The position numbers and the translations under genes were made by a program. The notes under the pieces are model-generated. The model saw only the letters and a list, made by a program, of their open reading frames with translations. It ran no database searches and was not told where the DNA came from. DNA of 64,000 nt from Psammoneis japonica (taxonomy: Eukaryota), in assembly GCA_008632985.1 (NCBI GenBank), contig QPGO01000110.1, forward strand, positions 62,001-126,000, in the 5' to 3' direction. Shown one piece after another: positions 5,150 through 63,400 of this stretch. Within the stretch, counting starts at the first letter, position 1; the number at the start of each line of letters is the position of its first letter.

Positions 5150-8100
5150 TCCTGTCAAAATGACATTTGAGGGCGAAGGTGTCTGTGTCGTGTCAGTGAG
5201 ACATTTCAGGGTGTGTGAAGAAGTGCTCTGCTCGCCCTTGCCACACACTTGCTCTGGAAACAGGAAGAGAGAGAGACTGGGCCATTGGTTGGGGGCTCTG
5301 ACTACCCAACTTGTGGGTGGAAGACAAGAATGGCTGCACCACCCCTTTGCTGGGAATGCAAGAGCGAACTTCCGTGAAGCGGGGGTTGTCTGGCTTCCTG
5401 AGTTGGCAGATGACTGCAGCCATTTTTGATGGAGTGTCAAGCCCCAGAGACTCTGGCTCAGTGGAAGCAAGAAAAGCTGGGGAAGATGTGTGCTTGTTGC
5501 CTGACAACCCCTTTGTCATTCCTTGAACCAATGCAACAACAAAACTCTCCAGTGCCAGCTTGGCGGTGAGTGACCCAAAAATGGGCTGTTGGGGCTCATC
5601 TTTGAGAATGAGGTCTGCAAAGCAGGTCTGGCTGCTCTCGGTGTGTTTGGCACCAAGGGTGACATGGAATGCTTTTCATGATCAAGGGTGAGCAGCTGCG
5701 GCATCAGGCAGCCATTGCTTGCTCTTGTGGTGCTCAGCTCAACTTGAGAAATTCTCAAGCATTTGGTGATCTCTTTCTGAAGCTGCCTGTGCTGAGCCAA
5801 GTCATTTGTTGTGTGGCCATGCAGGCAAAAATGCACCAATTTTGAACACTCTGCTGCTTGAGAGCTGAATTTTAGAAATTCTCAGTGCTTGTCCTTGACT
5901 GTGAATATAGCTGGTCAATGCCACCAACCCCCCAGCACTGGCCAAGTCAGGCTCAACATTGTGTTGGTGGCCCTTCATGTCAGAGAAAGGCAGCTCTTCC
6001 TCTTGCTTGTTTCCTGAACATGCTGTCATCCTCTTGATTGGCAACAGCTTTGTCGCAGGCACCCCCCATCCACGCGGCAATGGCAAATTGTTCCCGGTCA
6101 GGACATGGGGGTGGCCCATGATGTTTTGGAACAATTGCTCAAGGGATGCTTCTTTGCTCTTGAGGGCCAGCAAGAGAGAGAAGCTTTGCTTCAAACCTGA
6201 TCCAATGATTGCAAATTGTCCTGTTCTTGGATGCTGGGATTGTGCCAAAGACTGGTGTCTGCTGGGGCACTGTCAAGAGTTCCCTCCTTGACTTGCTTTT
6301 GTCCTGACACCCAGCCTCCTCTTGGTTCTGCTTTTGTGGCAGCCAATCTTGACGGACATGGCAGCCCTCCTCTCCTTCCTTGCCATCATTTTGGACTGGA
6401 CAGCCTTGGGCAACTCTCTCTCTCTCTCTCCTTGCTTGTTGGATGACTTGGCCAAAGAAATCACTCGTCAGCTCTTTGCTGGTGCTTGTTTTTTTTGTTT
6501 TTGAGATGTTGGCCTCCTTTCTGACAGAGGAGCCTTCATGCTTTCATCACTTCAGGATCCATCCTTGGCAAGCCTGTTGCCTTGGTCTTGACAATCTTTG
6601 TTCCTGAGTTTTGTTGGAGATGAGTTTGTCCCCTGCTTCAGTGCTGACAGGCAGTTTTCTTGGTTTTCTGCGCAAATTTCTGTGCTTCTCTTGCAAAAAC
6701 TGAAAAGGTTGACCAGTGCATCAGAGGGGTCATGCACCTCACAGGTCTGATTCATTTTGCATCTCCTCATTGCCCACAAGGTGCTCAAACCATCACATCT
6801 CCAGAGGAGTTTTTTGGGAGCTGCTGTGCTCTCCCAAAAGTTGTCTGGTGGCTGGTGCTGCCTTTTTAGAATTTTGACTTTCCTGTCCAAGACCAAAAAA
6901 TGGCTGGCTGTTTGCTCACAGCTTTTTTTTGTGGAACATCATGTGTGAGATGCTGCTTTAAAACTGAGCCCATCAGAGTGAGCCACAAAATTTGGCGACA
7001 CCAACCAAATGACAGCGATGGCATTTTTCTCTCAGCTTTTTCTGCTTGCTGCAACCCACAACTGCAAAAACATGCACAGCAGCATGGCTCAACAATGCAA
7101 AGAAGCACCATGGGAAAAAAGAGCAGACACAGACACAACATGAGCATGATGGGAAATCAGCCACAGACAGCTGATGCATGATCAAAAGCAAAAAGAGCAT
7201 GTCCACTCATGAGAATCTCAGACCTCATCTCTGAGTTGTTTTCCAATCACTTGTCCTCACCAGAGAGAAAGAAAATGTCAGGAGATTCAGTGTGGACACA
7301 GGTCATTCCAGCCACACAAACCTCCAAGTCAGTGGCGCTGCTGCAGTTGCCAACAAAGTGAGATTGGGCTCTGACAATGGGCTCATTGCAAGGTTTTGCT
7401 GCTGAGTCTTTCATGCAGTTCTTGATTGCACAGAGTGTGGAAAAGGATTGAAAGTCAAGCAAGCAAGGTGCTGCTGTTGGCCTCAACAGCTCACAAGAAA
7501 GCAGCAGCAAAAGCAATTTGAAAGTGCAGGGGGCTCACAGCATCTGTTGCATTTCTGCAGTGCAGCCACATCATGGAAGGCAAAGCACAAGCAAACACCA
7601 TTGCTTGGGCAATGTGCCTGATTGGCAAACACAGGAATTTTTCTTCAGCACAGTCCTTCCATGAGCCACTTCATTTGGAGACAGAAAGATTGTGCGGATT
7701 GTGTCAAGGACCCTCCACATCATGAAGGGACTCTTGCACTTGGATGTGGTCTGGTGGCAGTGCTGTCCACATGACCTCACAGTGGGAGAATCCTTCCACT
7801 GTGCTTGCTGCTGGTGGCAATGACATTGTCAAAAAGGCAGCCAAGTGTGCAATGGCCATGAAGCCAGAACATGGGCCCATGCAGCAACTCACGTCATGGA
7901 AGACATTGCACACATTGGCATCTTGCATGTGGCAAAAAGTCAGAGAACATGAAGGCATGCAACAGGTGTTGCATTTCTTGGCATTGCTGCAGCGATGACT
8001 GCCCTGCCAAGGATTGGCGCAAGAGCCACAAGCGTGCAATGCAGCCCGCTGGAGGCCATGCCACAAGGAGCAGGCATTTCATGCACGTCAATCTCAGCTT

Positions 8101-8234
8101 TACAAATGGCGGCTTTGTGCACCTGAGGGACATGTGCCTCCAGAGGCTGCCAAGACATGTCCACATGAATCACCCAACATGCATCTGTGCAATGTCAAGC
8201 CAGACAACACACACTGCAACTGTCCGTTTTGCGT
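5150..8234. other. TpA- and CpG-depleted degenerate domain (decayed repeat/gene copies), host site of Copia element 1
   Basis: Only about 7 TpA in ~3 kb by manual count; strong TG/CA excess; overlapping Cys/His-rich, Tyr-poor ORFs. Confidence 0.8.
7915..8045 (+). pseudogene. MYND-type zinc finger remnant
   Basis: ACGKKSENMKACNRCCISWHCCSDDCPAKDWRKSHKR matches the MYND spacing C..C..CxxC..YCSxxCQxxDW..HK. Confidence 0.6.
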
Positions 8235-8403
8235 TGACAGACATCCGAGATGGGGAGTGCACTCCCTTGTGTCGGACAGACTGGCACAGACAGCATGGAG
8301 AGATCCGATGATCTCTCCTTTGCTCACTTTCTTTCTCATCTAGTGCACGATTGTCATCTGTCCTAGACATCCGTTAGATTGTCCCGATGCCGCTAGTCCG
8401 CAA
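8235..8403 (+). repeat. 5' LTR of Copia element 1
   Basis: Direct repeat of 15148-15320; begins TGACAG, ends CCGCAA. Confidence 0.95.
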
Positions 8404-8413
8404 GGTTGTGAGC
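8404..8413 (+). other. Primer-binding site (half-tRNA-iMet type), mutated
   Basis: GGTTGTGAGC directly after the LTR; one TA->TG change from GGTTATGAGC, the complement of the tRNA-iMet anticodon arm GCTCATAACC. Confidence 0.7.
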
Positions 8414-8843
8414 AGCAGTGTGCTGTTCCTCTTCTTCTGTGCTCCTCTGCTGCAATGCCCGTTGTGTGGTTTGGCGACTTTTTCTTCGTTGAAATCGTCA
8501 TCATTGTCACAGCCATTTTTTCACCTCTCGATTTGTGATCAAACGACCACCGCAGAACACATGCCAGAGCTCTGCGCAGGAATTTAATTTTTTTCCCGCG
8601 CAACCATGGTGAACAAAAATCAAAATGCCGTCGATTTGACCAAGATCAAGTCGATGCTGGTTGCATTCAACCCCCAGCATGGCTTGCCAGATGCCCATCA
8701 TTGCCTGAACATCCTTTGTTCCGACGAAGACACCTGCTCCTGAAGAACTTCTGGATGGATTTACTCCTCAAGGCCTCAAGAGCGATGCCACCACTGCTCT
8801 CCGTCACAAGATTGTTCATGACCTCATCATCCCCAAGGCTGCC

Positions 8844-11800
8844 TTGACTGAAGATCTCACACGGATTGGGCCGATCATGGACAAAGCTCCTCTCTTTGTG
8901 GCTGCTCCAGAAGCTTCTCTGGTTCATCTAAATCTTGCCAATCTTCAGAAGACTGTGATTGGCATGATCTCAGATGGTCAAAATGCCACAACGGTCTGTG
9001 TTGAGACCATGTTTCTCTTCTTCCGTCCTGATTTCCCGTCGCATGCATGTTGGGACGACATCTCGGATGCTCCACATTCAAAGACATCTCCAACCTCAAG
9101 TTCTGTGCCTCCACCGGTTGCTGCCACAAGTCCCACTCCTGAAGACTTTGCCAAGGCCTCAGCTGCTCATTTGCCTGGTCCAAAACAGTTTGAGCAAGCC
9201 ACGACAAACGCACTGAAGAACTCTGCTCCCAAGACATCATCTTTTGCACCGTCTGCCATGACTGCTGCTGGTGCGGCTTCTTCATTGACTGCTGCTAGTG
9301 CTTTGCACACCTTCAACCCGAAAGGACTTCCAAAGGATGTGCTGGCTTGCCATCAATGCAAAGAAGCCGGGAAAGCAGTGCTCGGAAAATCACTGGCACC
9401 TTGCAAGTCTGGAAACCTTTGTTGCAAGGACGGCACTGAGCGTCTCATCCTTGCCGATGGTTCTCTCTTTGTTCATCACACTGACTGGGATGCAAAGTCT
9501 TTCCTTTGTGACCCCCTCACTTGTGATGACATCTCTCCTCAAGGAATCCGTGCATGGCACACTGCTGTCACCCAACAAGCCTCGGCTTGTGGCACACACA
9601 TGCATCCTCTGTGGTGTTTTATCAAGGATGGTGGAAACTGGGGTTTCACCTGTGGCAATGATCCAACCGATGATCCACCTCTCCAAATGACGGCGGCACT
9701 TGACTGAATGAAACTGACCATCTTCCAGCACATTCAGAAAGTTGGAATTTTTCCTGCAGACTCCAAATGCCCTGACATTGTTCGTCAATGCTGTGGTGAT
9801 GGATGTGTGGCTGTCAAGATGATTCTCTTTGACATCCCACTGATTTGGACGAAGCGTCTGCATGAGTTGATCAAGAGCCACCCGCACCAAAACAATCTTA
9901 CGGTCCTTAGCTGCTGTGCTCCATTCAGAGACTGCCTCCAGCTACGATCCATCATCTCCAATGTTGATGCCTCTCTTGATGACCCTGGTGAGCTCGACAT
10001 CTTTCTCAGCAACACCCACTGTGGCGAGCACCTTCACCGTAAAACAGCGGATGCCCGGGAAGACAAGAACCAACAACACAAGTTCACCCAGAAGAAAATT
10101 GTTGAAACTGTCAGTGCGATTCTCAAGGAACCGGACAGCCCAGCTCTTCATGTCAAGGACCCTCCCAAATGTCCTCCACGTCGTCTTCACACTTTGCCTC
10201 CTCCTCCTCTCGCAGCTCCTGTCCGCGGTCTTGACTTGCTTCCCAAAGATGAAGTTTCTACTCTGCCTCCTGCGATTGAGGAGCCTCCCAAGGCAACTGA
10301 ACCTCCTGCTGTGGAAGAACCTGCGGAAACCATGGAGCATTTTGTGAATGAACTTGCTGCTGTGGATGTTCCTGCGCAGATGATGATGCACAAGCCCTCC
10401 ATGGTGTCCACAAGGCCTGCATCCACAGGATCAAGTCCTCTCCTGCCATTGCACAGAACCGTCCATGTGTTGTTTGTGGCAATGACCACTTGTTCCATGA
10501 GTGTCCTGTGTTGAATGATGCTGAGCACCTGCGCACTCATCTCATTCAGTTCTCCCAGTTCCTTCAATGTGATCAGCGTGCTCGTGATGCACCCAAGTCT
10601 GACACGGCCAGAAAGGATTTTTCCCAGGGCTGTTGTCATGTTCGGACACACAATGCCGCCCATCCTCCTCCCATCCAAAAACTCCTGCAAGCGGGGCAAC
10701 TGTGAAAGAGGGTCCAACCGACTCGTTGCCTTCCGCTGATGCTCCTCTTTCACCTGTCTCATTTGCCAACCTTCTTTTGGGCTCGACAAAGGCTGGTGCT
10801 CCTGATCCCAAGACGATTCCTGATGATGACCCTGGTGATCATAATCAGGGGAGGGCATTAGATCCCTCTACACTGGATGCTGCTGTTCCATTGTCTGCTG
10901 ATCAAGACCAAGAATTTGAGCATCTTGATGTGACCAACACCCAGCATTTGTCACCTCTCAGTGCCACACGCATCTCCCCAATTTTTTCTCCCCCGGAATC
11001 ACCTGCGACCTTTGCATCCTTGACTGCTCCAGTTGTTCCCATCAATCATGTCCTTTGTGATTCAACGATTTGTCATGCACAGATTGATGCTGGCACTTGG
11101 GCATCCTGTGCAGGGGACAAGAAACTCCTCCATGCCCATGCTCCCTTTGGACCGGATGATCCTTGTCCTTTGAAGATGCTTCCTGCTGCTGAAGGCTCTG
11201 ATGTGGTTCCTCATGGCTTTGGTTGTCTACAGGTGCCTGCAGACAATCCTGAAGGTTTTCTTCTTGTGCGCACCTTTTGCCATCCCAGCCTGCGTTCCAC
11301 TTTGATTGACGAGCATGATTTTGCGCAGGCTTCTGGTTTCAAACCTCAGTCCATTCGCTCCGAGCTTCTTGAGAAGACATGCGCCGACGGCACTTGCACT
11401 TACACTGCTTCCACTGATGCTCAAGAGGTGGTTGTCCATGGCACACTTCGACATGGCAAGGTCTTCACACAACCCCTGGTTCCTCCGTCTGCGTCCAATG
11501 TCCCTTCGACATCACTGACTCCTGACTTGTCCTTGGTTGATGACACTGATGATGCCTGTCAACGTGCAGTCTTTTTTGTCAACATCCAACAAGGTCCATC
11601 CGATCCCTTGCTGATGGACACAGAGCTGTTTTCCATGCAGTGTGACACAGCTCCCAACATCTCCCCTCCATTGTCTGCCTCTGCTCCTGTCCGCTCTCTC
11701 AAAGTTGAGACTGAACGTCTTCCATGGCATCAACGCCTTGGACATCCCAGCGATCACTGTTTGTGCCATGCTCACAAGTGTGTCAAGGGCGTCCCCAAGT

Positions 11801-14800
11801 TTTGACGTGCCAATCCTGTCCTTGACATGTGCCCTGCGTGTGTTCAAGCCAAGCAAGTCAAGACTCCCGCTGGTCCAAACATGACTTGGAAGGCAACCCA
11901 GCCATGCCAAGGTCTCACTGTAGATTTTGCTTTTGCTGGCCAGACTTCCAAGAATGAAGACCGCAAGGTTGATTGTCTTGGATGCAATGGTGAAACGTGT
12001 TGGATTGCTGTCTATGATCATCACACGCGGATGCTCCATGGAGCAGCGAGGGTTTCCAAAGCCAGTCCCCTCAAGTGGCTTTGCCGATTCTTGGATCGAC
12101 ATTCACCAAATTGTTGTGACAAATGTGTGTTTGTGGACCAAGGTGGGGAATCATGCAAAAACCCCAAAGTTCGTGACCTCTTTGAACGCGAATTCCAGCA
12201 TGACATCTGTCCTTCTGGCACTGGTGCATCCAACCAATGTGGACCTGTTGAACGCTCACATTTGACTGTTGAAAACGCGATTCGTGCAATTTTAATTGGT
12301 GCCAACCTTCCGATTCGATTCTGGCCCTGTGCATTTTGCCATTGCCTCCGCATCAAGAATGCTGCTCCTGCAAAAGATCAAGATGCGGCACCCATCACTC
12401 TTGCCACCGGAAAGGTCGAAGATTTTACTGCTCTGAAGACTTTCGGATGTCGAGCATGGTCCAAACGGTCCACTGCTTGTTCTGCCACCTTCCGGACCAA
12501 TTCCAAGAAGGGCACATTCCTTGGTCACCTTCCAAACACCCTCAAGAATGTCATGTGGTGGGATCCTGAGACTGACAAAGTCAAGACGGCCAAGCATGTG
12601 TGCTGCAATGAGGGCATGAATGACCTGTTTTTGGATCAACTCCCTCCCAATGCCATCCATTTGCAGTGTGTGGAAAATGGTCAGCCTTTTCCAGCTGAAA
12701 CACAGGACACCACCGTTCCTGTGTTCACGTCTTCGTTGAATCCTTTTGCTGCGACTGTCACATGTGCCATGAAACGTCCTCCAAAGGACCCCACTTGTGG
12801 TTTTGGATTTTCCCAGTGTGCGCTGATGGACCGTGTCTGTGTGTCGGAAATCAAGCAGCACAGTCCTGCGGCTTCCTTGTTTTCTTCCCTCCGTGCTGCC
12901 CGCAACAAGATTGTGGGTGCATGCGTTGTCTCTGTCAACAAGCGTGAAGTCGTTGCTCCATTGGATGCTGAAGAGGCCTCATTTCAGGTCTTCCATGATG
13001 AAATCCCAACTTTCGAGATTGCTTTTGCGCCGGAACGACGATTGGATTCTTGCACCCTTGACAAGGCATTTGAGGAAGCAGAGTCATTTGCACCTGACTC
13101 CATGGAGGACGACTCCCATGTTCCCGAACTCACTTTGGAAGATGTGCGATCTGTTGCGGCTCTTCTCCATCCTGATGATGATTTTTTGGATGAGGCCATC
13201 CCTGCGGATGTCTTCTGTGCACATCTCAATGCGATTGGCTCCCGCTCTCTCACTCCGGAGGAAGCTGCTCTTGACCGCCTCACCCGTGCCAAGCTTCATA
13301 AACTTGACACATGGCCTGAATGGGAAGAAGGCAAACAGCATCAATTGGATCAATTTTGTGCCCTTGGCATGTGTGGTCCTCCACAGCCATGTCCCCCTGG
13401 TGCGAACGTCATGCGTCCGCATTGGGATCACATGGTGAAGCCGGATGGACAACGTCGTTCTCGGCAATGTGGTGATGGCTCCAAGTCGGCAATGCCGGCC
13501 TTGCACAAGTTGACTTCCACCTGTTTGTTGTGTGTGGAACGCTCTGTCGAAAAGATGTTTTTTGCTCTCAGCGCGGCTGTGTTGCATCATGTCTTTGGTG
13601 GTGATGCCTGGGATGCCTGCGCTCATTCTCCTGGTCCTTCCCAGCAGGTTTTTGTTGCTGTTGATGATGCATGTGCCACCTGGTGTGAAAAGAGATTTGG
13701 CAAGACAGTGCCCCACCATTGTGTTCTTCCGCTCAAGCATGCTCTTCAAGGTCATCCTGAGGCTGGTGTCCTCTGGGAAAAGCGCATCAATTCGATTCTC
13801 ACAGGTGCGAAACTTCTTTTCCACAATGCTGCTCACGACAAGTGCATCTGTTCCGGTGAATGTGATGGTGTCAAGGTCCTTCTCCTTTGTCAGGTCGATG
13901 ACTTTGCTCTTGCTTGTCCTTCTGAAAGGATTGCAAAAGAGATCTACGACCATGTTGGCAAGGCTCTCCAGATGGAGAATGAGGATGCTCCTCCCTTTAA
14001 GCATTTGGGCTTGGTTGCTGAATTCAATGGTGTTGATGTCATCCAAAATGACGATTCAATTGCTGTCAACATTGCCAGTTGCCTTGACCGTGTTTTCAAG
14101 ACACATGGTTGGGATGCTCCTGCTGCGCATGAGTCTGATTCTGATTTCAAGGCTGCACCTGTTCCGGTTGATTGCACTCCTGATCTGCACGCCACTGAAG
14201 GTCCTGAAGAGGGCACACCTGAGTGTGACACTCTCGCTGAGTCCCAGAGATTCTCTTGCCATTCTGTTTTGGGTGAGTTGGTCTTTGCCTGCTCTTGTTG
14301 TCACTTGGACATTGGTCATCCTGTTGTCACCTTGTCCAAGTTTTCCAAGGCCCCGGCTGAGCTTCATTGTGATTCACTCAAGCATGTGGCCAAGCATTTG
14401 TGGTGCACCAAACATTGGGGGCTGACGTGTGTGAAGTCTGGGCGCGATCCCAGTCTGCCTCCTTGCGATTTCAAATGGCTTGAGGATGACCCATCTCTCC
14501 TGGACTTTCCTTGTGCTGAAGACTTTTTCCAACTTCTTGGTTTCATTGATGCGGCACATGCCAATGAACTGTGGCGTCGCCGTTCTGCTGCTGGACATGC
14601 GCGTGTCCTCCTTGCTGGTGCTGCAATTGACTGTCGATGCCGCGCGCAAATGATTGCGCTGCCAGTTCCACGGAAGCTGAGTTTCTCGCGGCTGTTGCTG
14701 GTGTGAAACAGACCCTGTGCCTCCGCATGGTTCTGGAAGAACTGGGCTTTCCCCAGCGTGATCCTGCTCCCTTGCACATTGACAACTCCTCTGCTGTCCA

Positions 14801-15005
14801 GATGATCAACAACAAGGTGCCTGCGGAGCGATCCCGCCACGTTGACATTCAACATTTTGCTGTCCAAGACTGGCGTGACGCAGGCAAGATTGTCACTCGA
14901 CACATCCCGGGTGTCATCAACCCTGCTGATGCACTGACCAAGGCTGTGGGTTGGGTGCTCCATTCCCGCCATGCTGCCTGCCGTTTGATGGGACATTGCC
15001 GTTGA
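8844..15005 (+). pseudogene. Copia gag-pol (gag, GAG-pre-integrase, integrase, RT, RNase H), broken by stops and frameshifts
   Basis: WHQRLGHPS pre-integrase motif; integrase DFAF..DQGGE..VERSH; RT QVDDF; RNase H SSTEAEFLAA..IDNSSA..RSRHVDI..NPADALTK. Split across ORFs 8844-9707, 9708-10514, 10633-11805, 11827-14706 and 14637-15005. Confidence 0.9.
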
Positions 15006-15137
15006 TTGTTGTTGGGTTTGTTGTGGATTGAGTCTTGGGTGTGTCTCTGTTTTATTTGTTTTTTGTCTTTGCCATTCTGGTCCTCTCTTTTTATTCGGAT
15101 CGTCTCTTTCTTTCTTGTTGAGCATTGCAATGCTCAT

Positions 15138-15147
15138 CAGGGGAGGG
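15138..15147 (+). other. Polypurine tract of Copia element 1
   Basis: CAGGGGAGGG immediately upstream of the 3' LTR. Confidence 0.8.
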
Positions 15148-15320
15148 TGACAGACATCCCCGAGATGGGGAGTACACTCCCTTGTGTCGGACAGACTAGC
15201 ATAGACAGCATGGAGAGATCCGATGATCTCTCCTTTGCTCACTTTCTTTCTCATCTAGAGTACACGATTATCATCTGTCCTAGACATCCGTTAGATTGTC
15301 CCGATGCCGCTAGTCCGTAA
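15148..15320 (+). repeat. 3' LTR of Copia element 1
   Basis: Direct repeat of 8235-8403; begins TGACAG, ends CCGTAA; followed by TSD TGCGT. Confidence 0.95.
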
Positions 15321-16016
15321 TGCGTTCTTGCCTCCCAACACCAGCTTGTCACTCTGGCAAAAGCAATGAGGAAGATTCACAAGAGATGGACGCAAAACAA
15401 CCATTTTGAATGCTCCTCATTCTCTGGCATCAATGCCAGAGACATTGCTTCTGGAAGGAAGGCATCTTCCTCCACTCGACCTTGTTGAAATCTGACACAA
15501 TGTAACACCATCATTTGCTGTGAGAAAGAATGAAGAGCGCCCAAATCAAAGAAAAGGAAACCCAAAATTGAAAATTCAATGTCTCAAATGACCCTGCTGT
15601 CAGAGTGTTCCACCTAAAAGCACACTTCTTGGAATGGATCGCTGCTGCTTGCCGGCACGAGTGAGGAGCTGTGCTTGATGAGATCACACCTCTTCGTGTG
15701 AATTTAGCTGCGCTTTCGACCTGCCTCCAAGCGCTTGGCAAGCTGTAGCTGTCTTGAATACTACACCTTCTATTTTGGCATGACTTAACCTGCGAAGCGA
15801 GAGATGAGGACTAGTTCGTAATCGTGAATGCTAGCTAGTAGATAGAGTTACCGCTTTGCCCATCCGGACTTTGGCTTACCCGCGTACTTGTTGTAATATA
15901 AGCACCTCCTACGAAGCACGTACTCTACGTTATCACTCCTATCGCACTCAACATCATTGGGGCTACAGTACTGTCAGGTGCAACTAGCTAAAATTGGTTT
16001 TTAACGTACACATCGC

Positions 16017-16687: not shown

Positions 16688-16999
16688 TATTACGAATCAG
16701 GAGGTATGCAGCAGGAAAAGACACAAAGTAACAGACAGCGTGCGTGATGGATGGCAACAACAGGCATTACAGTGATCAGTGATCACGAAAAAATGATGGC
16801 GCCGCATCCACGTGTATCTCGGCGGTTGTGTTGCACGTTGAACTCCCGCCGACAACACGTCATCTGATTTTGGCGTCCATCCAAGACCGAAACAGCGACC
16901 TGCTTTTACCGTAGTACAGCATGGAGAGGCGCATGCGGCTCAGAGGACCCAAGTTAGTGCGTAGAAGAAAACCTCACGGGTGTCGTCCATTTTGCATTT

Positions 17000-45554: not shown

Positions 45555-45614
45555 TTCGCAAGGTTTACTTGTGTACCAAATCTTTGATGCATTCTATAAT
45601 AGATTTTCTGAATG

Positions 45615-50327: not shown

Positions 50328-50676
50328 CCTGCGAATGGCGAAAAGAATGAGGTTATCACTCAGTCAGTGTGGGTGTGCCACGTCCGTATGCGGTTTTCTT
50401 CTCACGCACGGTTAGTTGTCTTCTGACACAACTCACAGCACGTGTGCCACTGTAAAAAGGCATGTAAAGAAACACCTCACAGGAAAGCGCATTTCCGACA
50501 GCGCACACAGTTCAATCAAATGATGATTACAGCACATGTAGTCGGCTAAAGCTAAACACAGACCATTTCAGGAAAGACATGTGTTGACTCTGCTGCTCTT
50601 GTCCTGATGCTGTGTTGACTTGCGGCCGACTTGTGCGCATTTTCAGATGACACAAACTGGACATCAACACAGGTGG

Positions 50677-50953
50677 TGACAGAAAATGAAGGCAAATGGC
50701 AAGAATTCAAACAACAACTCCTTACTGCTGTCTAAACAGCAGATGAGTCTCCGCTCAGAGACCGTCACAGGAGCCGAAAGACGTGCAAGTCGGTGTGATC
50801 GGGCTGCTGTCATTGTTCTTGTGAGCCTTGTGGCTCGAAAGCAAACTGCATCGCGCGTGAACGTTGCAGAACTAAAGCACACAAAACTGTGCACGGTAAA
50901 CTAAACAGCGCACGACACTTCGCGCGCACCTGGATCCTGTTCAAATCCTGTCA
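50677..50953 (-). repeat. 3' LTR of Copia element 2
   Basis: TGACAGAAAAT...ATCCTGTCA, repeat of 57510-57785; adjacent purine tract AAACTGGGGAG on the minus strand. Confidence 0.95.
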
Positions 50954-56600: not shown

Positions 56601-57498
56601 CTCTGGTTGGGAAGAGAAGGTAGACTCGAAACTTGGGTGAGAATGGACTTGACTTGAAACAGACTTGACTTGAAATCTTGAACTGTCTTAAAATCAGAAG
56701 TCGCCGGGCTTTGTCATCCCGTTCGTTGTCAAGTGCTAAACTTCCCATCCGGTCCGTAGAGTTGTGCCGGCACGTCCGAACCCGCAGCTGGCGGCGCTTT
56801 GGGTTGCTTGCGAGCGGAGCAGCGGGTTGTAAACCCCTGCAGGCAAGCTGACTGGAGGTGGACAAGACCCCCGAACCGTTCTCATTTTATGTCGGTTGGA
56901 TTTCCCGATCAGGCTGGCCAGTTGACGCAGGCGTCAGGCGCTGTGGACGAACGAACAAACGTGGGAAAGCACCCTCGCCCCAACGCAGGCTGCAATCACG
57001 GCTGCTTGCTCTCACAGTCGTCCTCGTAGACCTAGCAGAACTGTAGAGCACCAGTAGTCCGGGGTAGATCAGGTACAATGGACTCGGTGTGCTTGTAGAG
57101 TGGTGGCAAAACCGCAGTCCGAAGAGTGGGTGCAGGTTCTTGGCCGTGAAGATATGTATATATACACATGTCTTCAGCGACGAAGATCCTTGAATATGTA
57201 GGGTTCTTGACCGTTAACCGATGAATAGGTATATCAAGGGATGAGGATCAAGGATAGACTTGGATATGACCGTTGAATGTATGTCTTCAGCGATCAAAGG
57301 TAGTATAATCAATCCAGATATCCAGCGGTAAGGAGACTTGACGGTGACGTTAACTTCCTGCCGATGCCCTGGTATTGAATGCGCGTAGACTTGCCGATGT
57401 ATGTAGGATATATACGGAGGTCCACGTAGAATTGAAATAGCGTCGTTGGTAAATCAACGACGACGATGGCGGTTGCTCAATGGGTTGACAATGAGCAA

Positions 57499-57509
57499 GA
57501 CTGTTAATC
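57499..57509 (-). other. Candidate primer-binding site complementary to a tRNA-Asn(GUU) anticodon arm
   Basis: Minus strand reads GATTAACAGTC directly after the 5' LTR, the complement of GACTGTTAATC. Confidence 0.55.
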
Positions 57510-57785
57510 TGACAGAAAATGAAGGCAAATGGCAAGAATTCAAACAATAACTCCTTACTGCTGTCTAAATAGCAGATGAGTCTCCGCTCAGAGACCGTTG
57601 CAGGAGCCGAAAGACGTGCAAGTCGGTACAATCGGGTTGCTGTTGTTATTCTTGTGAGCCTTGTGGCTCGAAAGCAAACTACATCGCGCGTGAACGCGCG
57701 GAACTAAAGCACACAAAACTGTGCACGGTAAACTAAACAGCGCGCGATACTTCGCGCGCACCCAAATCCTGTTCAAATCCTGTCA
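57510..57785 (-). repeat. 5' LTR of Copia element 2
   Basis: Repeat of 50677-50953; bordered by TSD GGTGG. Confidence 0.95.
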
Positions 57786-60700
57786 GGTGGCAAAATCAAA
57801 GACCAAGACAAGGCGATCATCTTCATTGGAGGGATGGGAAGATGGCATGATCAGAAAAGTGGTTGCGCATGCCATTGGCAAAGGCATCATCCCATGCATG
57901 TGCCGTGCCAGCCTTGGGTGCAACAAGAAGGAGGTTTTGTTTGCAGCGGGTGAGAATGCCGAAGCACCTCTGTCCAAAAGGCAAAGGGCAAACGCGGCCT
58001 TGTTGTTAAGATCCAGATGAAAATCTGCAGGAGGAGTTTCTCCTGACAAGACAAAGACCTTGACACAAGCTCAAGGACCCACATCCATTTCAAGATCAGG
58101 CCAGGTGTCCTGCACACGACCACGAATCTTGGAGAGAACCTCGGCATCGACATCATCAGTTTTCATGGCGCAATCTGATGAACCAACTGGGCCATTGCAC
58201 ACTTTGTCCTTGGAGATTTTGAAGCACACTTCACCTTCAATGGGGTGGCTCTTGATGTGCTCATCTTCCATCTTGCACCAGGTGCCAAAAGCCCCGCGCT
58301 CGAAACTGCACTTGTGCACAATTTGGTGAAGCGCTGCAAGCTTGTTGCCCCATCAAGAAAGCCATCAAAAGACCAGATGCCCGGGTTGGAAGCAATGAGC
58401 TTTCCTCCAACTGGCTTGGTCCATGGCTTGTCAAAATCCATCTCATCAGCAACAACAGCTGGAGCATCCTTGGCATTGCCTTGCAGCTCCTTGCCGTTGA
58501 AGCACTCATTTTGCAACTCTGAGGCTTCCTCCAACTGGCTTGGTCCATGGCTTGTCAAAATCCATCTCATCAGCAACAACAGCTGGAGCATCCTTGACAT
58601 TGCCTTGCAGCTCCTTGCTGTTGAAGCACTTGTTTTGTAACTCTGAGGCTGCAATGCACAACGCAGATGTTGTCATGGCATCACCATCAACACAACATCC
58701 AACTTTGTTGAGAGAATGACAGTTGACTTTGGTGCAAAAATGAGCTCCAATGATGACAAAGCCAGGTTCCATCCATCCACTTGTCTGACAATTTTGCGTG
58801 TGAGTGCACAAACTGCTCTGACTGACAGGCAGGGCCAACAAAACACACACTGGAGCTTGTGCATGGAATCCTGCAACTGCACAGCTCCATTTCTGTGACA
58901 AGCAGAAATGACCTGTTCCAGCTCCAAGTGTTGCTCAGAGGTGTGCAATCCACCGATGGCACATTTTTGTGTTTGGTGCAATGGGTTCCTTTGACTTTGA
59001 TCATTTCAAAAATCAAAGGGCACAATGCTTGTGTTTTTTGTGTGCACTCACCTTTTGATTTTTGAAATGATCAAAATTGAAGGAGCTGCTCATGATCACT
59101 CATTTTTTCACTTTTTTGCTGCAACTCAACTGACATCCAAACACGCCCTGTTTCTCCAGACACCAGACATTTAATTTCACACTGAGTGCACCAAAAAGAC
59201 ATGTCCTCTTGACTTTTCATCTGTCTCATCCACCAGCCCCCTCATTGCCCATTTTTCACTCAAATCTCCAATGCATCATTGTGAAGAAGAGGAAGGAAGC
59301 TGAAGTTGGCCATCAACACAAGTCAGCAACTGGCAGCACCAAAAACAAATGATCCAATTGCAAAATTCCAAGACAATCTGTCCCCTCCCAAATTGATGCC
59401 AAAGGAGCAACAGCCACTCCCTCCAACCTCACCTGTGACAATTCCACCATCACTCCCTCCACACTTCTCTTGCCCACCAAACTTCTGTCAACCTGAGCCC
59501 CTCCACAGAATTCCTGGCTCATCATGAAAGGTTGTCCTTTCCAAGACAACACATCCCCTCCCAATTCCATGCAGCCACTCCCTCCAACCTCACCTCTGAC
59601 AATGCTGCTGTCACTCCCTCCATTGTGCCCACCAACCAAATTTGCCCCACTTCAATCCTCATGCCTTTGGTGCAGCCCACAAAGATCCCCAACAAGCACT
59701 TTGTTGTTCAGAGATCAAAGCAAAACAAGGAGTCTTGTCTTGCACTGCCGCTCAAGAGCAATGAGGGGCTGCCTTCATGTGCACTTTGCATCTTGTTTCT
59801 CACAATGTGGAGCAGTGAAAAACAGACCAAAATCAGATCAGAATCTCTAAAAAGGAGCCCATCTTCAATTGACATAAAATGCAAGAGTCTCCAGTGCTGC
59901 ATGTTTTCTGGCACAGCTGGCAACAGATTTTTGGTGCTGTGCTGCCAAAGGAAACACGGGATGCAAAAATTTTGGCCACATTCTTTCATGGCTGGTGGCA
60001 GAGTTGCAGAGTGTCTCTCTGCCAAGACCCGCAATGTTTTGACCATTCCTTGGTTGACTGGCAACAGACTTGCAGCATTCATGCCAAGACCCACAAGTGT
60101 TTGGTTGACAGCATTCCAGGATGACTGGTTGCACAGAGACAGAGTGTTGCAGTGTGACTGCCAAGAGAAAGCAGGAAAACAGCCACCAGCATGGTGTTCC
60201 TGAGCGCAGCTCAATTGGGTGGGAAGGTCTGCCATTGTCAAACAAGCCTTGTCCTGCCTGACAACTGCATGCTTTGTTGCAACAATGGCCATCTGTGCTT
60301 TCCACACCTGGTTCCAAAGACCCTGTTTGCTGTCATCATGTGATGACAGACAGCTGCTGGAGACATTGTCTCTGAGTCCAAATAAAAAAAAGACTGGCCG
60401 CTGTGCACAGTGGGACTGTTGCTTGCTTTGGCCAACATTGCTCTGTTGCTGTGACTTGGGAAGCTGATTGTGGACCCAGCAACAGACCCAGCAGCTCTCA
60501 AATCAGCTGCATCATGTTGAGCTCTCATGAAAGCAGGTGGTGTCATCAAAACAGAGACACCCAGCCAGGCACTTTTGGTTTGTGACTTGCAGCGTGCATG
60601 GAGTTTGGAGTTTGGGGTGTGCTTGGAAGCTGAGGCTGCAAAACATTTGTCAGAGTGGCTTGCTTTGCTGCTTCACACATTGTCACACCATGTGTTTTGG

Positions 60701-63400
60701 CCCACTGGCTGGCTGCTGCACTCACAAAGGTTGAGCTGTGCTGCCACAACAGTGGTCAAGAAGCAACCCTGTCAAGATGTGCTCAACGCTTTTGACTCAT
60801 GCCTTGGGGCATCATGCAGAGTGTGCTTGGAAGTTGAGGCTGCAGTGAATTTGCTCAAAATGACTTGTTGATGTTCCACTGGCGCTTGACACTTGGTCAC
60901 CATCAGGAGGCCCAGCGTGGTGCCCACATGGCAGCTGCGCCAAGCAACCCCTGGTTGAGCTGTGCCCAGCATGTGACTTGCTTGTGAGTTTGGGTGTGAA
61001 ATGTGCTTGGAAGCCAAGACTGTAAAAGGTTTGTCTAAAGTGGCTTGTTTCACTGCTTGACACTTGGTCACCTGGTCTTGCGTGTGCACACACACACCAG
61101 TGGCTGATGATGCACTGCTCTGTCACAATGGTGGCCAGGCAACCAGTTCTCAAGCTGTGTGGTCCAACAGTTTTTACTTGCAACTTGGGGCATGTGGAGT
61201 GTGCTGAGGAGCTGAGGCTGCAAGTGATTTGTCAGACATGGCTTGTTTTGCTGCTTGGGGCTACAAAAAACTTGTCAGAGGTGGCTTGTTGAGCTTCCGC
61301 TGCTTCTCACACATCTGGTGGCACCAGGTGTTTCTGCACATTGCTGCACTCACCACCAACAATGATGAGCTGCTGCCACAACAGCAGTCAAGCAACCCAG
61401 CTGAGCCATGCCCCAGCACTTTTTGCTTGTGACTTAAGATGTGAGAAGCTTGCTCAGAAGTTGAAACAGCAAACAATTTGTCAGAAGTGGCTTTTGTTCT
61501 GTTGCTTGACACCTGGCGCCACCAGGTTTTTCTGCACACAGTGGCTGCACTGTCACTGCAAGAGCTGTCAAGCAACCCAGCTGAGCTGTGCCCATCACTT
61601 TTCTTGTACTTTGGGACATGTGTGGAGTGTGCTTTTGAAGGCAGAGACTGAAAAAAGTGGCTTGTTTTGCCTCTTGACACTTGGTCACCAGGTTTTTCTG
61701 CACAATCAGTGGCTGCGTTGCCACCACAACAGCCCTCAACCAACCCAGCTGAGCTGCACCCAACACTTTTTCAATTGTGACTTTTGCAACATGTGGAGTG
61801 TGCTTGGAAGCTGAGGCTGCAAAAAATGTCAGAAGTGACTTGCTTGCTGTGCTTGACACTTGGTCACCAGGTGTTTTTTTGTGCAGACAGCACAAAATGG
61901 CGGCTGCACTGCCGCCACAATGGCAGCCAAGCAACACAGCTGTGCCCAGCACTGGTTGCTTGTGACTCAGGGTGTGTTGAGCATGCTCAAAAGCTGAAGC
62001 CATGAGCAGTTTGCTGTGAGAGGTTTTTGTTTGCTGCTTGACATTTGGCACCACAGGGTGTTTCTGCACACACAGTGGCAAGAAGGCGCTGTCACCACAC
62101 TTGGCAAAAAGTGACCCGGCTGAGCCAATGTGTTCAACACTTTCAACTTGAGTTTTTAAAATTTAAGTGTTCAAAGCCTGCCTGAAAATCCAAGGAAAAA
62201 CAGCAAGTCAGAAGTGACCACTTTGGCTTCATGGTGCTTTGTTGCCAGGGTGTGTGTGCCCTGCTTGCAACTCACCTTTGAGACCCAGAATTCTTGACAA
62301 AGCAACGCAGACCCAAGTCAGTGGTGCACTGACTGCAGATGTTGGCAGTGGCCACCCATTGCACCAAATTCCCACTCCTTGCTGTTGCTGCCTTTGTCAC
62401 CCCCCACAGGGACAACTGCCCCTCCACACTTCTGGAGCTTCTTTGCAAAATCTGTGCAATGAGCTTGAGTGTGATCGTTCACTGCCTTGGAGCGCCACCG
62501 GCAGCACTGCATCTTTGTCCTCAAGCAGCATGTTTTCTCTCATCAAAGCCAGCTTTCCCATTGAGCAGACTCTTTCTGTGTGACTCTCAGCATTGGTGGC
62601 ACCAATCTGAGCTAGAGAGCAGCTTGCCATGAGAGGCAAGAACATCCAAGCTGCTTGCGCTTCTTCTCTGATGACTCCAGCTTCTTGCACAAGACACACA
62701 CGTCCAGCTTCAGCAAGTCTCCAATGTCTGAGATTAGATTTCTCCAATGGCACCTTCTCACTTGGACACTCTTCATGCCACATGACCTTCAACTGAAGCC
62801 AGCTTTTGTGACAACTTTCTTGAGCTCTCACAGAGCACACAGCCTTTTCTCTTTGTTGCACTGACCACAGGAGTTTTCTCTGCTGACTGGGCACAGCTGC
62901 TGTGGTCATGTGAAGAGTTGGTGTCAGAGCCACCAAAGATGTCATGCTCTCATGTTGAGACCACCAGCACTTGCACAAGGTGCCAAAACAATGTCCTTGT
63001 TGGCTGCTGATCAGCTGCAGCCAGTCTCAAGCTCGTGCCTTTCTGCAGCCCAGCTGCTGTGTCAGCCTCTTCTTTCTTTCACTTCTCCTCTGCTTCTTTC
63101 TTTTTTCTCTCTTCCGCACATTGGTGTGAAAAGTGGTGGCATGCCAATGGTCTTCCGGCAGAGGCTGGGGCATGTTGGCAACTGCTTGCAGGCCCAGAAC
63201 ACAAGACATGATGGCATGGCCACCGCCACAACTGGCCATCAAACTTGATTCTTCTCCCTTGTTTTGACTCAAAAACTTCTTTTGAAATTGTCATGTTCAT
63301 CAAGCTTTGAAAGACTGCCATCCATTGGATCTTGTGGTGTGCATCACTTCACTGTAAAAGACGGCAAAAGACCGCCATGGAGCAGAAATTCGCCTTCCTC
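57786..63400. other. TpA/CpG-depleted domain: decayed gene-like sequence and degenerate tandem repeats
   Basis: About 15 TpA in ~5.5 kb by manual count; 124-bp tandem duplication at 58402-58650; ~170-195 bp repeats at ~60550-62150. Confidence 0.8.
60550..62150. repeat. Degenerate tandem array, unit ~170-195 bp
   Basis: Recurring CACCAGGT(G/T)TTTCTGCACA, CAACCCAGCTGAGC and GTGCTTGGAAGCTGAGGCTGCA. Confidence 0.75.

What the first reader, a model, noticed from the sequence alone, without database searches (positions are those of the whole stretch)
5150..63400. Candidate new genome-defence system: repeat-targeted A->G hypermutation at TpA (TpA->TpG/CpA), an adenine analogue of RIP
Seen: four sharply bounded domains (~5150-15740, ~17000-19010, ~26730-34080, ~50400-63400) almost lack TpA and are rich in TG/CA, while interleaved genes and intergenic DNA have normal TpA. 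LTR pairs differ mainly at TA vs TG/CA, and conserved Tyr codons have become TGY (Cys) or CAY (His). Known: fungal RIP is C->T and creates TpA and stop codons; 5mCpG decay gives CG->TG/CA and cannot remove TA; ADAR editing of a retroelement transcript would give A->G on one strand only. Inference: a process converts A to G in TpA on both strands of integrated, repeat-rich DNA, for example a DNA adenine deaminase or mutagenic processing of a modified adenine guided by homology or heterochromatin. I am not aware of a description of this in diatoms but cannot search. No candidate enzyme is visible in the window.
Basis: partly seen in the sequence, partly recalled or inferred. Interest (0 to 1): 0.95.

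Follow-up and report, generated by a model that had tools for sequence, protein, structure and literature searches.

The report
TpA hypermutation of diatom transposons
In this stretch of a probable diatom genome, old and young mobile-element DNA has had nearly every TA dinucleotide turned into TG or CA, a targeted mutation process so far reported only in a 2026 preprint on an unrelated alga.

Summary
Five blocks (30.8 kb in all) hold 122 TpA, against 1372 in the other 33.2 kb. TpA observed/expected (O/E) is 0.04-0.16 inside and 0.59 outside, and the borders are sharp to within 100 bp. Polarised tests give the direction TA->TG/CA. Two copia elements with intact target-site duplications have LTR pairs that differ almost only at TA vs TG/CA. 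At conserved Tyr columns, element B has 19 Cys and 4 His (8 of 34 Tyr kept) and element A has 5 Cys and 2 His (0 of 8 kept). All 120 relatives of B, the 22 of A that were aligned, and 54 related loci are neither Tyr-poor nor TpA-poor. TG and CA gains are about equal, so both strands are hit. TAT is the most mutable context. TpA loss runs ahead of CpG decay. No stop codons are created, so open reading frames persist.

The host gene's named relatives are all diatoms. The same signature was shown experimentally in the chlorarachniophyte Bigelowiella natans (bioRxiv 10.64898/2026.01.13.699255), so this is a new member of a just-described kind. It adds a new lineage and a new target, LTR retrotransposons. 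The enzyme is unknown and repeat-targeting is not shown.

The parts
5144..8234 (.). D1a: old TpA-free block of unidentified origin. It lies left of element A and is single-copy in run X1.
   Evidence: 8 TA in 3091 bp: TpA O/E 0.04, CpG 0.15, TG 1.72, CA 1.78. An X1 contig of 3377 nt at depth 62 matches 4887-8263 with 2 other letters. No Pfam family at E <= 0.001, only sub-cut-off matches up to E 0.1. No blastx hit and no purine/pyrimidine-coded match above control.
8235..15320 (+). Element A: heavily mutated copia-type LTR retrotransposon. LTRs are at 8235-8403 and 15148-15320, the TSD is TGCGT, and ORF pieces span 8844-14706.
   Evidence: LTR pair. TSD. SH3_retrovirus and RVT_2 matches. Homologues down to E 1e-281. 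TpA O/E 0.065 and CpG 0.51 over 8235-15053. Tyr is 0.2% of the 959-aa ORF. Of 8 conserved Tyr columns, 0 are kept: 5 Cys, 2 His, 1 Trp. Multi-copy family, with depth 1300-6000 against ~60 for flanks.
15054..15320 (+). Spared island: the last ~95 bp of the interior plus the 3' LTR of element A, with normal TpA.
   Evidence: 11 TA in 267 bp, TpA O/E 0.61. The 3' LTR keeps TA at all 6 sites where the 5' LTR has TG/CA.
15321..15720 (.). D1c: continuation of the old TpA-free block to the right of element A.
   Evidence: 3 TA in 400 bp, TpA O/E 0.10. 100-bp bins.
16999..19014 (.). D2: old TpA-free block between an EF-hand gene (16020-16475, -) and a MAPEG gene (19247-19903, -).
   Evidence: 9 TA in 2016 bp, TpA O/E 0.07, CpG 0.24. 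Edges go 6->0 and 0->6 TA per 100 bp. An X1 contig of 2003 nt at depth 66 matches 16877-18879 with 1 other letter. Flanking genes.
26786..33951 (.). D3: old TpA-free block of unidentified origin with internal ~190-200-bp repeats (29892-31044).
   Evidence: 17 TA in 7166 bp, TpA O/E 0.04, CpG 0.31. Repeats. No Pfam family at E <= 0.001.
50553..50676 (.). D4pre: left remnant of the old block into which element B inserted.
   Evidence: 1 TA in 124 bp, TpA O/E 0.12. It abuts the TSD GGTGG.
50677..57785 (-). Element B: younger copia-type LTR retrotransposon. LTRs are at 50677-50953 and 57510-57785, the TSD is GGTGG, and an open 1899-aa polyprotein frame runs 50901-56600.
   Evidence: RVT_2 E 1e-24. 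LTRs and TSD. Over 50677-56621, TpA O/E is 0.16, CpG 0.91 and GC 0.57. Tyr is 0.8% against 2.9-5.0% in 120 homologues. Of 34 conserved Tyr columns: 8 Tyr, 19 Cys, 4 His, 2 Phe, 1 Trp.
56622..57785 (-). Spared island: the leader and 5' LTR of element B, with normal TpA.
   Evidence: 54 TA in 1164 bp, TpA O/E 0.75. The leader is 0.81, against 0.45-0.87 upstream of the ORF in 18 related loci. LTR2 has TA at all 6 TA-vs-TG/CA sites.
57786..63355 (.). D4b: old TpA-free block to the right of element B, with internal repeats (58396-58650, 61163-62079).
   Evidence: 16 TA in 5570 bp, TpA O/E 0.045, CpG 0.15. Repeats. No Pfam family at E <= 0.001.

Best explanation
These blocks are integrated mobile-element DNA in a probable diatom genome. 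They have undergone a real, TpA-specific A:T->G:C hypermutation acting on the chromosomal copy, of the same kind as the one measured in Bigelowiella natans.

Shown:
- The direction is TA->TG or TA->CA.
- Both strands are hit about equally, and site by site without runs on one strand.
- The process is confined to sharply bounded tracts that do not follow element ends.
- It is faster than methyl-CpG decay in the same DNA.
- TAT (ATA on the other strand) is the most mutable context.
- It cannot create in-frame stop codons. It scrambles proteins by missense, mainly Tyr->Cys/His, and leaves long open frames.

Inferred: an enzyme recruited to silenced, CpG-methylated chromatin modifies the TpA step. 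The most likely route is deamination of adenine to hypoxanthine, which then pairs with C, carried out by a TadA/ADAT2-like deaminase. The effect would be permanent inactivation of invading DNA. Neither the enzyme nor the recruiting signal has been seen.

The confidence given is for the whole statement. I put the reality of a TpA-specific mutational process at about 0.9, its action in situ on DNA at about 0.75, and adenine deamination as the chemistry at about 0.4.
For: Depletion and borders.

Polarity, protein level:
- Element B keeps 605 of 647 conserved non-Tyr columns but only 8 of 34 Tyr columns (19 Cys, 4 His), Fisher p 7e-22.
- Of 68 changed conserved columns in B, 30 are explained by a TpA transition (counted by hand).
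- Element A keeps 0 of 8 conserved Tyr columns (5 Cys, 2 His).

The pattern is not a family trait:
- 120 of 120 homologues of B have Tyr 2.9-5.0%.
- 22 of 22 aligned homologues of A have Tyr 2.5-4.5%.
- 54 related metagenome ORF regions have TpA O/E 0.45-0.96, against 0.16 for B and 0.06 for A.

Changes after insertion: both elements have intact 5-bp TSDs, and their LTR pairs differ almost only at TA vs TG/CA.

Both strands: against 26 CpG-intact relatives, B lost 37 TA per kb and gained 14 TG and 15 CA per kb. TG aligned to CA occurs 21 times in 1835 columns of intra-domain repeats and 4 times in 1679 columns outside, p 0.001.

Context: a surviving A with a 3' T is rarest, at 18 inside against 778 outside. 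The figures for C, G and A are 62/807, 70/570 and 94/589. This holds for B and for the other blocks taken separately. 14 of 18 polarised LTR events have a 3' pyrimidine (read by hand).

Order of decay: CpG O/E is 0.91 in B, 0.51 in A and 0.15-0.31 in the old blocks, while TpA is already at 0.16 or below in all of them.

Not an assembly quirk: k-mer contigs of run X1 reproduce the TpA-free D1a and D2 with 2 and 1 other letters, at single-copy depth.

Outside this assembly: metagenome proteins P0392 and P0133 are 91% identical. Of 13 Tyr in the aligned part of P0392, P0133 has 8 Cys, 1 His, 1 Phe and 3 Tyr.

Precedent: 230 of 231 de novo mutations in two integrated viral regions of B. natans were A->G/T->C, and all of those fell on TpA.
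Against: - No enzyme, DNA modification or chromatin mark has been observed. No genome is held, so candidate genes could not be sought.
- Adenine deamination cannot be told from thymine-directed chemistry, because every event is A:T->G:C at a palindromic step.
- Equal hits on both strands with no strand-coordinated runs are not what single-strand-specific deaminases usually leave.
- At Tyr codons, Cys outnumbers His 24:6 in A and B together (binomial p 0.0014). This may reflect the 3'-pyrimidine preference, a real sense-strand bias, or both, and it is not resolved.
- Each young element keeps one end unmutated (15054-15320 and 56622-57785). No model here explains that.
- The four old blocks have no recognisable gene or relative, so their foreign origin is assumed.
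- Only one run holds the sequence. It may be the run the window was assembled from, and its platform is not on record.
- A defence function is an inference. The mutations could instead be a side effect of a silencing mark.
Confidence: 0.65

Rival explanations
1. The phenomenon is the same but the chemistry targets thymine. A TET/JBP-type dioxygenase oxidises T in TpA of silenced DNA to 5hmU/5fU. The oxidised base mispairs with G, or is mis-repaired, and gives T->C.
For: Every event is equally well read as T->C in R-T-A context. In dinoflagellates 5hmU replaces T preferentially in TA and TC, lies on TEs and silences them (PMC11572971, passages found). A double-strand-acting, palindrome-symmetric modifier fits the equal TG and CA gains.
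Against: No TET/JBP gene or 5hmU has been seen for this organism. That 5fU is mutagenic is recalled, not taken from any call. The B. natans authors favour adenine deamination, though on homology alone.
Confidence: 0.2
2. The mutations arose before integration. Retrotransposon RNA or cDNA was edited during the replication cycle (ADAR-like or APOBEC-like in logic), and the edited copies were then inserted.
For: At Tyr codons, sense-strand A->G (Cys) outnumbers T->C (His) 19:4 in B and 5:2 in A. cDNA-level editing can in principle leave the two LTRs different.
Against: Net TG and CA gains in B are equal, at +14 and +15 per kb. The spared end is the 3' LTR in A but the leader and 5' LTR in B, so it does not follow the polarity of reverse transcription. 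The old blocks, and the 400 bp and 124 bp of flank outside the TSDs, are equally TpA-free. A 3' T/C is favoured, whereas ADAR prefers a 3' G by my recollection. In B. natans the mutations arise de novo in integrated DNA viruses.
Confidence: 0.08
3. It is a sequencing or base-calling artefact. A modified base at TpA in silenced DNA is read as G or C, and the true sequence still has TA.
For: The blocks coincide with DNA that is probably modified, judging by CpG decay. The platform of the only run that holds the stretch is not on record.
Against: 31-mer contigs at depth ~60 reproduce the blocks almost letter for letter, which needs accurate and mutually consistent reads. Each site is fixed as TG or as CA. 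The same Tyr->Cys/His signature is seen in proteins from other public metagenome assemblies. CpG decay and protein-level decay accompany the pattern. In B. natans the changes were new mutations called against the ancestral line in mutation-accumulation lines sequenced on Illumina.
Confidence: 0.03
4. There is no dedicated system. The pattern reflects relaxed repair, or biased gene conversion, of ordinary lesions in silent chromatin.
For: The blocks are gene-free and CpG-decayed, so they may be heterochromatic and poorly repaired.
Against: The specificity is extreme. All 6 of 6 LTR substitutions in A, and 14 of 19 substitution columns in B, are at TpA or at TG/CA sites. TpA outruns methyl-CpG decay. 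GC-biased conversion does not single out TpA. In B. natans the rate is about 1000-fold above background and appears only in some lines.
Confidence: 0.05

Closest known systems
TpA->TpG/CpA hypermutation of integrated giant-virus and virophage DNA in Bigelowiella natans (Mettrop et al., bioRxiv 10.64898/2026.01.13.699255; abstract, Results and Discussion read)
   Same: The changes are almost exclusively A:T->G:C, only at TpA, and on both strands. They are confined to particular integrated foreign regions while the rest of the genome is normal. In the long term TpA falls as CpA+TpG rises. TpA-poor coding sequences are enriched for reverse transcriptase and DDE domains.
   Different: The host is a stramenopile (probable diatom), not a rhizarian. 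The identifiable targets here are LTR retrotransposons. Depletion here is close to saturation (O/E 0.04-0.16, against Rho 0.45 for the B. natans NCLDV region). CpG decay occurs alongside it, whereas the word CpG is absent from the preprint's main text. The neighbour preference, the absence of stop creation, the spared islands and the 100-bp borders are described here only. No de novo rate could be measured here.
Repeat-induced point mutation (RIP) of ascomycete fungi
   Same: It is a targeted, dinucleotide-specific transition hypermutation that permanently inactivates mobile DNA within sharply bounded tracts.
   Different: RIP is C:G->T:A, mostly at CpA. It creates TpA and stop codons, lowers GC, and requires duplicated sequence. 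Here TpA is destroyed, GC rises (0.57 in B, against 0.39-0.54 in relatives), no stops are made, and blocks that are now single-copy are affected.
Deamination of 5-methylcytosine at CpG (CpG decay)
   Same: It gives the same products (TG and CA), acts symmetrically on a palindromic dinucleotide, and affects silenced DNA. It is present in these same blocks as a second, slower component.
   Different: It cannot remove TpA. In element B, CpG is still at O/E 0.91 while TpA is at 0.16.
ADAR hyperediting and APOBEC3 editing of retroelements and viruses
   Same: They restrict invading nucleic acids by deaminase hypermutation. ADAR favours a 5' U (as cited in the preprint).
   Different: Those act on RNA or single-stranded cDNA and leave one-strand signatures. 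Here both strands are hit equally, the DNA outside the elements' TSDs is also affected, and the favoured 3' neighbour is T/C.
5hmU marking of transposable elements in dinoflagellates (PMC11572971, passages only)
   Same: It is a TE-associated modification with a TA preference, in a marine alga of the SAR group.
   Different: It is described as a silencing mark, with no mutational signature reported in the passages I saw. No evidence for 5hmU exists for this window.

Membership tests
TpA-specific hypermutation of integrated foreign DNA (B. natans type) | Mutations are almost exclusively A:T->G:C transitions | tested here: met
   LTR A: 6 of 6 substitutions. LTR B: 14 of 19 substitution columns are TA/TG/CA type, 3 are CpG type and 2 are other. 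Tyr->Cys/His at 23 of 34 conserved columns in B and 7 of 8 in A.
TpA-specific hypermutation of integrated foreign DNA (B. natans type) | The mutated A is preceded by T (TpA only), giving TpG on one strand and CpA on the other | tested here: met
   TpA O/E is 0.04-0.16 with TG and CA at 1.3-1.9. B gained 14 TG and 15 CA per kb for 37 TA lost.
TpA-specific hypermutation of integrated foreign DNA (B. natans type) | Confined to integrated foreign DNA, with neighbouring host DNA unaffected | tested here: inconclusive
   Met for the two copia elements, and host genes next to the blocks are normal. The four old blocks have no identifiable origin.
TpA-specific hypermutation of integrated foreign DNA (B. 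natans type) | Arises de novo in the integrated copy at a rate far above background, and in only some lines | not testable with these tools
   This needs mutation-accumulation or pedigree sequencing. The only indirect evidence is LTR divergence after insertion and TpA loss outrunning CpG decay.
Fungal RIP | C:G->T:A at CpA, creating TpA and stop codons | tested here: not met
   The direction is the opposite. TAA plus TAG make up 11% of stop triplets inside the blocks and 48% outside, and TpA is destroyed.
Fungal RIP | Acts on duplicated sequence only | tested here: inconclusive
   Family A is multi-copy (depth 1300-6000). D1a and D2 sit at single-copy depth with no copy at 85% likeness or more in run X1. 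Their copy number in the past is unknown.
ADAR-type RNA hyperediting fixed by retrotransposition | A->G on the transcribed (sense) strand only | tested here: not met
   TG and CA gains are equal in B, and the LTR events fall on both strands. A Cys-over-His excess at Tyr codons (24:6) remains unexplained.
TadA/ADAT2-like adenine deaminase acting on DNA | A deaminase with an HxE...PCxxC motif is present and recruited to the target; the substrate context resembles U-A-C of the tRNA anticodon loop (recalled) | not testable with these tools
   No genome is held. No deaminase domain appears in the window's ORFs. The context evidence is a 5' T and a favoured 3' T/C.
Copia-type (Ty1/copia) LTR retrotransposon, for elements A and B | LTR pair, 5-bp TSD, and a polyprotein with integrase before an RVT_2 reverse transcriptase | tested here: met
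   LTRs and TSDs. RVT_2 in both elements. 1223 homologues of B at E <= 0.001 and 5112 of A.

The most novel reading that the evidence does not exclude
TpA-directed editing of chromosomal DNA is an old, widespread genome-defence or silencing system of SAR-group algae, present at least in Rhizaria and stramenopiles. It would be run by a so far unrecognised enzyme that reads the palindromic TpA step in double-stranded, heterochromatin-marked DNA. Its footprint would be Tyr-poor, Cys/His-rich, stop-free 'zombie' ORFs, already common in marine metagenomes and inflating gene and TE catalogues.
Probability: 0.35. Interest if true: 0.9.

Novelty: new member of a known kind. Interest (0 to 1): 0.7.

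Why it matters
If confirmed, this would be the second lineage with TpA-specific hypermutation of invading DNA, and the first in diatoms, a major group of marine primary producers with genetic tools.

- It shows that LTR retrotransposons are targets, not only integrated viruses.
- It supplies a testable sequence rule: T-A with a 3' T/C, both strands, and 100-bp borders. Any candidate enzyme must reproduce that rule.
- It has a practical consequence. The process removes TAA/TAG and never makes stops, so dead elements keep kilobase-long ORFs that gene callers will report as proteins. Tyr-poor, Cys-rich copia 'proteins' of this type are already in public metagenome catalogues.
- A natural enzyme that makes A:T->G:C changes in double-stranded DNA would also interest base-editing research.

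Tried and rejected
- **Whole genome:** not held, so there is no genome-wide TpA map, no other copies of families A and B, and no search for deaminase or TET/JBP genes.
- **Identity of the old blocks D1a, D2, D3, D4b:** 63 stop-to-stop ORFs of 110 aa or more gave no Pfam family at E <= 0.001, only weak matches below the curated cut-offs. There was no blastx hit to B and the 120 relatives of B. BLAST on purine/pyrimidine-recoded sequence, which is blind to transitions, found no match to A, B or the 78 related loci better than the reversed-sequence control.
- **Host clade from the SNF2 protein in the ESM Atlas:** the nearest clusters were viral or arthropod helicases, so it gave no information on the host.
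- **Site-by-site DNA polarisation of B against relatives:** the closest locus is only 70% identical, so this was dropped in favour of conserved amino-acid columns.
- **Strand bias:** the Tyr->Cys excess first looked like a sense-strand bias. Equal TG and CA gains and the 3'-neighbour effect make that reading unsafe, and I leave it open.
- **Strand-coordinated runs:** in LTR B the ten events of LTR1 form 6 runs, which is about the chance expectation. This was read by hand, and no coordination was seen.
- **Expression:** no RNA holder was listed for 5200-15199. Run X2, whose kind is only guessed, covered 14 of 30 bins of 1-20000, with next to no cover (depth under 5) between about 5340 and 18680. 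No inference is drawn from this.
- **Run X3:** nothing was laid.
- **Supplements of the B. natans preprint:** closed, so its lists of TpA-poor genes and its mutation tables were not seen.
- **Literature:** searches for TpA hypermutation with transposable elements and diatoms returned only the B. natans preprint as relevant. One search failed on term syntax and was not repeated.

Full report
**1.
In 1-kb windows, TpA O/E drops from 0.35-0.93 to 0.00-0.13 over ~5000-14700, 17000-18700, 26800-33700 and 57700-63000. It drops to 0.03-0.24 over 50500-56500. TG and CA rise to 1.5-2.0. The window has 1499 TpA with a median spacing of 16 bp, yet the blocks contain TA-free runs of up to 1771 bp.

With limits set by TA positions, the blocks hold 122 TpA in 30,769 bp and the rest holds 1372 in 33,231 bp. 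The edges are abrupt. At D2, TA per 100 bp goes 6->0 at 17000 and 0->6 at 19000.

Per-part values:

| Part | TpA O/E | CpG O/E |
|---|---|---|
| D1a | 0.04 | 0.15 |
| Element A | 0.065 | 0.51 |
| D2 | 0.07 | 0.24 |
| D3 | 0.04 | 0.31 |
| Element B | 0.16 | 0.91 |
| D4b | 0.045 | 0.15 |
| All DNA outside | 0.59 | 0.98 |

Two small islands of normal TpA lie inside them (15054-15320 and 56622-57785) and were not noted.

**2. What the blocks are.**
Two are copia-type LTR retrotransposons. Both are bona fide insertions, and both sit inside older TpA-free DNA that continues beyond their TSDs (15321-15720; 50553-50676 and 57786-63355).
- Element A (8235-15320, + strand) has 169/173-bp LTRs, the TSD TGCGT, and broken ORFs with SH3_retrovirus and a weak RVT_2 match.
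- Element B (50677-57785, - strand) has 277-bp LTRs, the TSD GGTGG, and one open 1899-aa frame with RVT_2.

The older blocks have no Pfam family at E <= 0.001, no blastx hit to the B family, and no similarity to A, B or 78 related loci even in a transition-blind purine/pyrimidine code. Their origin is unknown.

Between the blocks lie ordinary intron-bearing genes: sulfotransferase, MAPEG, EF-hand, SDR, SCO1, TPT and SNF2-HNH. Among the 120 listed homologues of the sulfotransferase, the 10 that carry an organism name are all diatoms, at 41-52% identity. Unnamed hits reach 59%. The window therefore most likely comes from a diatom.

**3. Polarity.**
At insertion the two LTRs of an element are normally identical, so their differences date from after insertion.
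- In A, all 6 substitutions inside the LTR are TA in the 3' LTR against TG (4) or CA (2) in the 5' LTR. The only other differences are two 2-bp indels.
- In B, 19 substitution columns comprise 6 sites TA vs TG/CA (TA always in LTR2), 4 sites TG vs CA, 3 sites CpG vs TG/CA (CpG always in LTR2), and 2 others.

At the protein level, B was aligned with its 120 best homologues (59-71% identity, about 1900 aa, from metagenomes). Of 681 conserved columns B keeps 613. It keeps 605 of 647 non-Tyr columns but only 8 of 34 Tyr columns, with 19 Cys, 4 His, 2 Phe and 1 Trp (Fisher p 7e-22). Codon inspection shows TGY and CAY at these places. It also shows further TpA-type changes across codon borders, giving 30 of the 68 changed columns by my hand count.

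A, aligned with 22 of the 150 listed hits, keeps 0 of 8 conserved Tyr columns (5 Cys, 2 His, 1 Trp). It also shows Arg->Cys/His/Trp, the mark of CpG decay.

The relatives are not like this.
- Tyr is 2.9-5.0% in all 120 homologues of B, against 0.8% in B.
- Tyr is 2.5-4.5% in the 22 homologues of A, against 0.2% in A.
- For 54 related metagenome loci, the ORF region has TpA O/E 0.45-0.96 with a median of 0.675. These 54 come from 78 fetched; I left out 24 with short matches.

Copies from the same genome could not be examined.

**4. Properties of the process.**
(a) **Both strands are hit.** Compared with 26 relatives whose CpG is intact, B has 37 fewer TA per kb and 14 more TG and 15 more CA per kb on the sense strand. 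Within-block repeats show TG aligned to CA 21 times in 1835 columns, against 4 in 1679 outside the blocks (p 0.001). That is what independent resolution of one ancestral dinucleotide would give.

(b) **Neighbour effect.** Among surviving TpA, an A followed by T is by far the rarest. The inside/outside counts by 3' neighbour are T 18/778, C 62/807, G 70/570 and A 94/589. 3' T is rarest in B and in the other blocks taken separately; the full order T, C, G, A holds for the other blocks, while B, scored against the same outside background, orders T, A, C, G. Survivors of the form YTAR are 43% inside against 17% outside. Of 18 polarised LTR events, 14 have a 3' pyrimidine (read by hand).

This preference probably accounts for much of the Cys-over-His excess at TAY codons (24:6 in A and B together, p 0.0014). 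I first read that excess as a sense-strand bias, and I now leave it open.

(c) **Speed.** B still has CpG O/E 0.91 with TpA already at 0.16. A has 0.51 and 0.065. The old blocks have 0.15-0.31 and ~0.04. TpA loss therefore runs ahead of CpG decay in the same DNA, which points to an active process.

(d) **No stop codons.** TA->TG/CA removes TAA and TAG and can produce TGA only from TAA. TGA makes up 89% of stop triplets in the blocks and 52% outside, and long ORFs appear in all frames. The 1899-aa frame of B is therefore not evidence of an active element.

(e) **Tracts do not follow element ends.** A is mutated up to 15053, but its last ~95 bp and its 3' LTR are untouched (TpA O/E 0.61). B is mutated from its 3' LTR through the ORF, but its leader and 5' LTR are close to normal. 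The leader is 0.81, against 0.45-0.87 for the DNA upstream of the ORF in 18 relatives. LTR2 is 0.62 and LTR1 is 0.30.

The spared end is the 3' end in one element and the 5' end in the other. On the chromosome it is the right-hand end in both. This argues against a gradient tied to reverse transcription. With two cases it may be chance, and it remains unexplained.

**5. Artefact?**
One public run (X1) holds 73% of the sampled words of 5200-15199. Its k-mer contigs reproduce the blocks:
- TpA-free D1a: 3377 nt at depth 62, with 2 other letters.
- D2: 2003 nt at depth 66, with 1 other letter.
- Neighbouring genes sit at the same depth, 57-63.

Element A sits at depth 1300-6000, with other copies differing mainly by transitions (A>G 181, T>C 259, C>T 242, G>A 228, and transversions 27-50 each).

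X1 may be the data behind the assembly, and its platform is not on record, so this is not independent proof. It does show that the letters are carried by many concordant reads.

Independent of this assembly, 7 of the 150 listed hits to element A have Tyr 0-1.1% with Cys 2.1-5.6%. They come from JGI and ENA metagenome contigs. P0133 is 91% identical to P0392. Of the 13 Tyr of P0392 in the aligned part, P0133 has 8 Cys, 1 His, 1 Phe and 3 Tyr (counted by hand). I put the artefact reading at about 3%.

**6. What is known.**
Full-text searches found one relevant work, a 2026 bioRxiv preprint on the chlorarachniophyte Bigelowiella natans. I read its abstract, Results and Discussion; its supplements are closed.
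- In mutation-accumulation lines, 231 of 302 nuclear single-nucleotide mutations fell in an integrated giant-virus region and a virophage region.
- Of those 231, 230 were A->G/T->C, and all of these were at TpA.
- The rate was about 6e-7 per site per generation, and mutations appeared in only some lines.
- 124 TpA-poor, CpA+TpG-rich clusters were found genome-wide, enriched for reverse-transcriptase and DDE domains.
- An ADAT2-like protein was proposed as the enzyme on homology alone.

The signature in this window is the same. The words CpG, diatom, LTR and tyrosine do not occur in the preprint's main text. I found no report for diatoms.

**7. Mechanism.**
Shown: a TpA-specific A:T->G:C conversion of chromosomal DNA, on both strands, tract-limited, faster than CpG decay, and favoured by a 3' T/C.

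Inferred: an enzyme recruited to silenced chromatin. I favour adenine deamination by a TadA/ADAT2-like enzyme. Its natural substrate context, U-A-C, is recalled rather than taken from any call.

The data fit oxidation of T in R-T-A equally well. In dinoflagellates 5hmU prefers TA/TC and marks and silences TEs (PMC11572971, passages).

The CpG decay in the same blocks suggests, but does not show, that the targets are 5mC-marked. Whether the mutations are the purpose (defence) or the by-product of a mark, as C->T is for 5mC, cannot be told from sequence.

**8. Verdict.**
- Repeat-targeting and the enzyme are untested.
- This is a new member of a kind described in 2026, in a new eukaryotic supergroup branch and on a new class of target. 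It adds several properties that constrain the mechanism.

Noticed in passing
public proteins P0133, P0190, P0206, P0207, P0211, P0257, P0268: Copia-type 'proteins' from JGI and ENA metagenome contigs have Tyr 0-1.1% with raised Cys and His. P0133 is a Tyr->Cys copy of the intact-looking P0392 at 91% identity. The same hypermutation seems to be present in environmental eukaryotes, and its stop-free ORFs are being called as genes.
   Followed up: partly
window 39573-41636: A large inverted repeat (40098-40373 vs 41144-40867 at 97.5%; outer arms 39573-39691 vs 41636-41518 at 84%) lies just upstream of an SNF2 helicase gene (41834-43642). That gene is followed by an HNH endonuclease domain (45102-45551). 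The helicase's nearest Atlas clusters are mostly viral. TpA is normal here.
   Followed up: no
window 60500-62000 and 29500-30500: ApT is also depleted inside parts of two old blocks (O/E 0.36-0.55 and 0.58-0.67). These parts coincide with internal ~190-250-bp repeats. It is not known whether this reflects repeat composition or a second context effect.
   Followed up: no
window 45615-45748 and 48573-48698: A direct repeat of ~130 bp at 87% identity brackets ~2.8 kb of normal-TpA DNA with unannotated ORFs. It could be the ends of another element that has not been hypermutated.
   Followed up: no
window 1-4700: Contigs of runs X1 and X2 show many differences, short skips (58-142 nt) and a divergent second form over 2500-3700. 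This suggests an allelic or paralogous copy, or spliced transcripts, of the genes to the left of D1.
   Followed up: no
window 8235-8403 vs 15148-15320; 50677-50953 vs 57510-57785: Elements A and B belong to families only ~22% identical in RT, yet their LTRs begin with the same TGACAGA.
   Followed up: no
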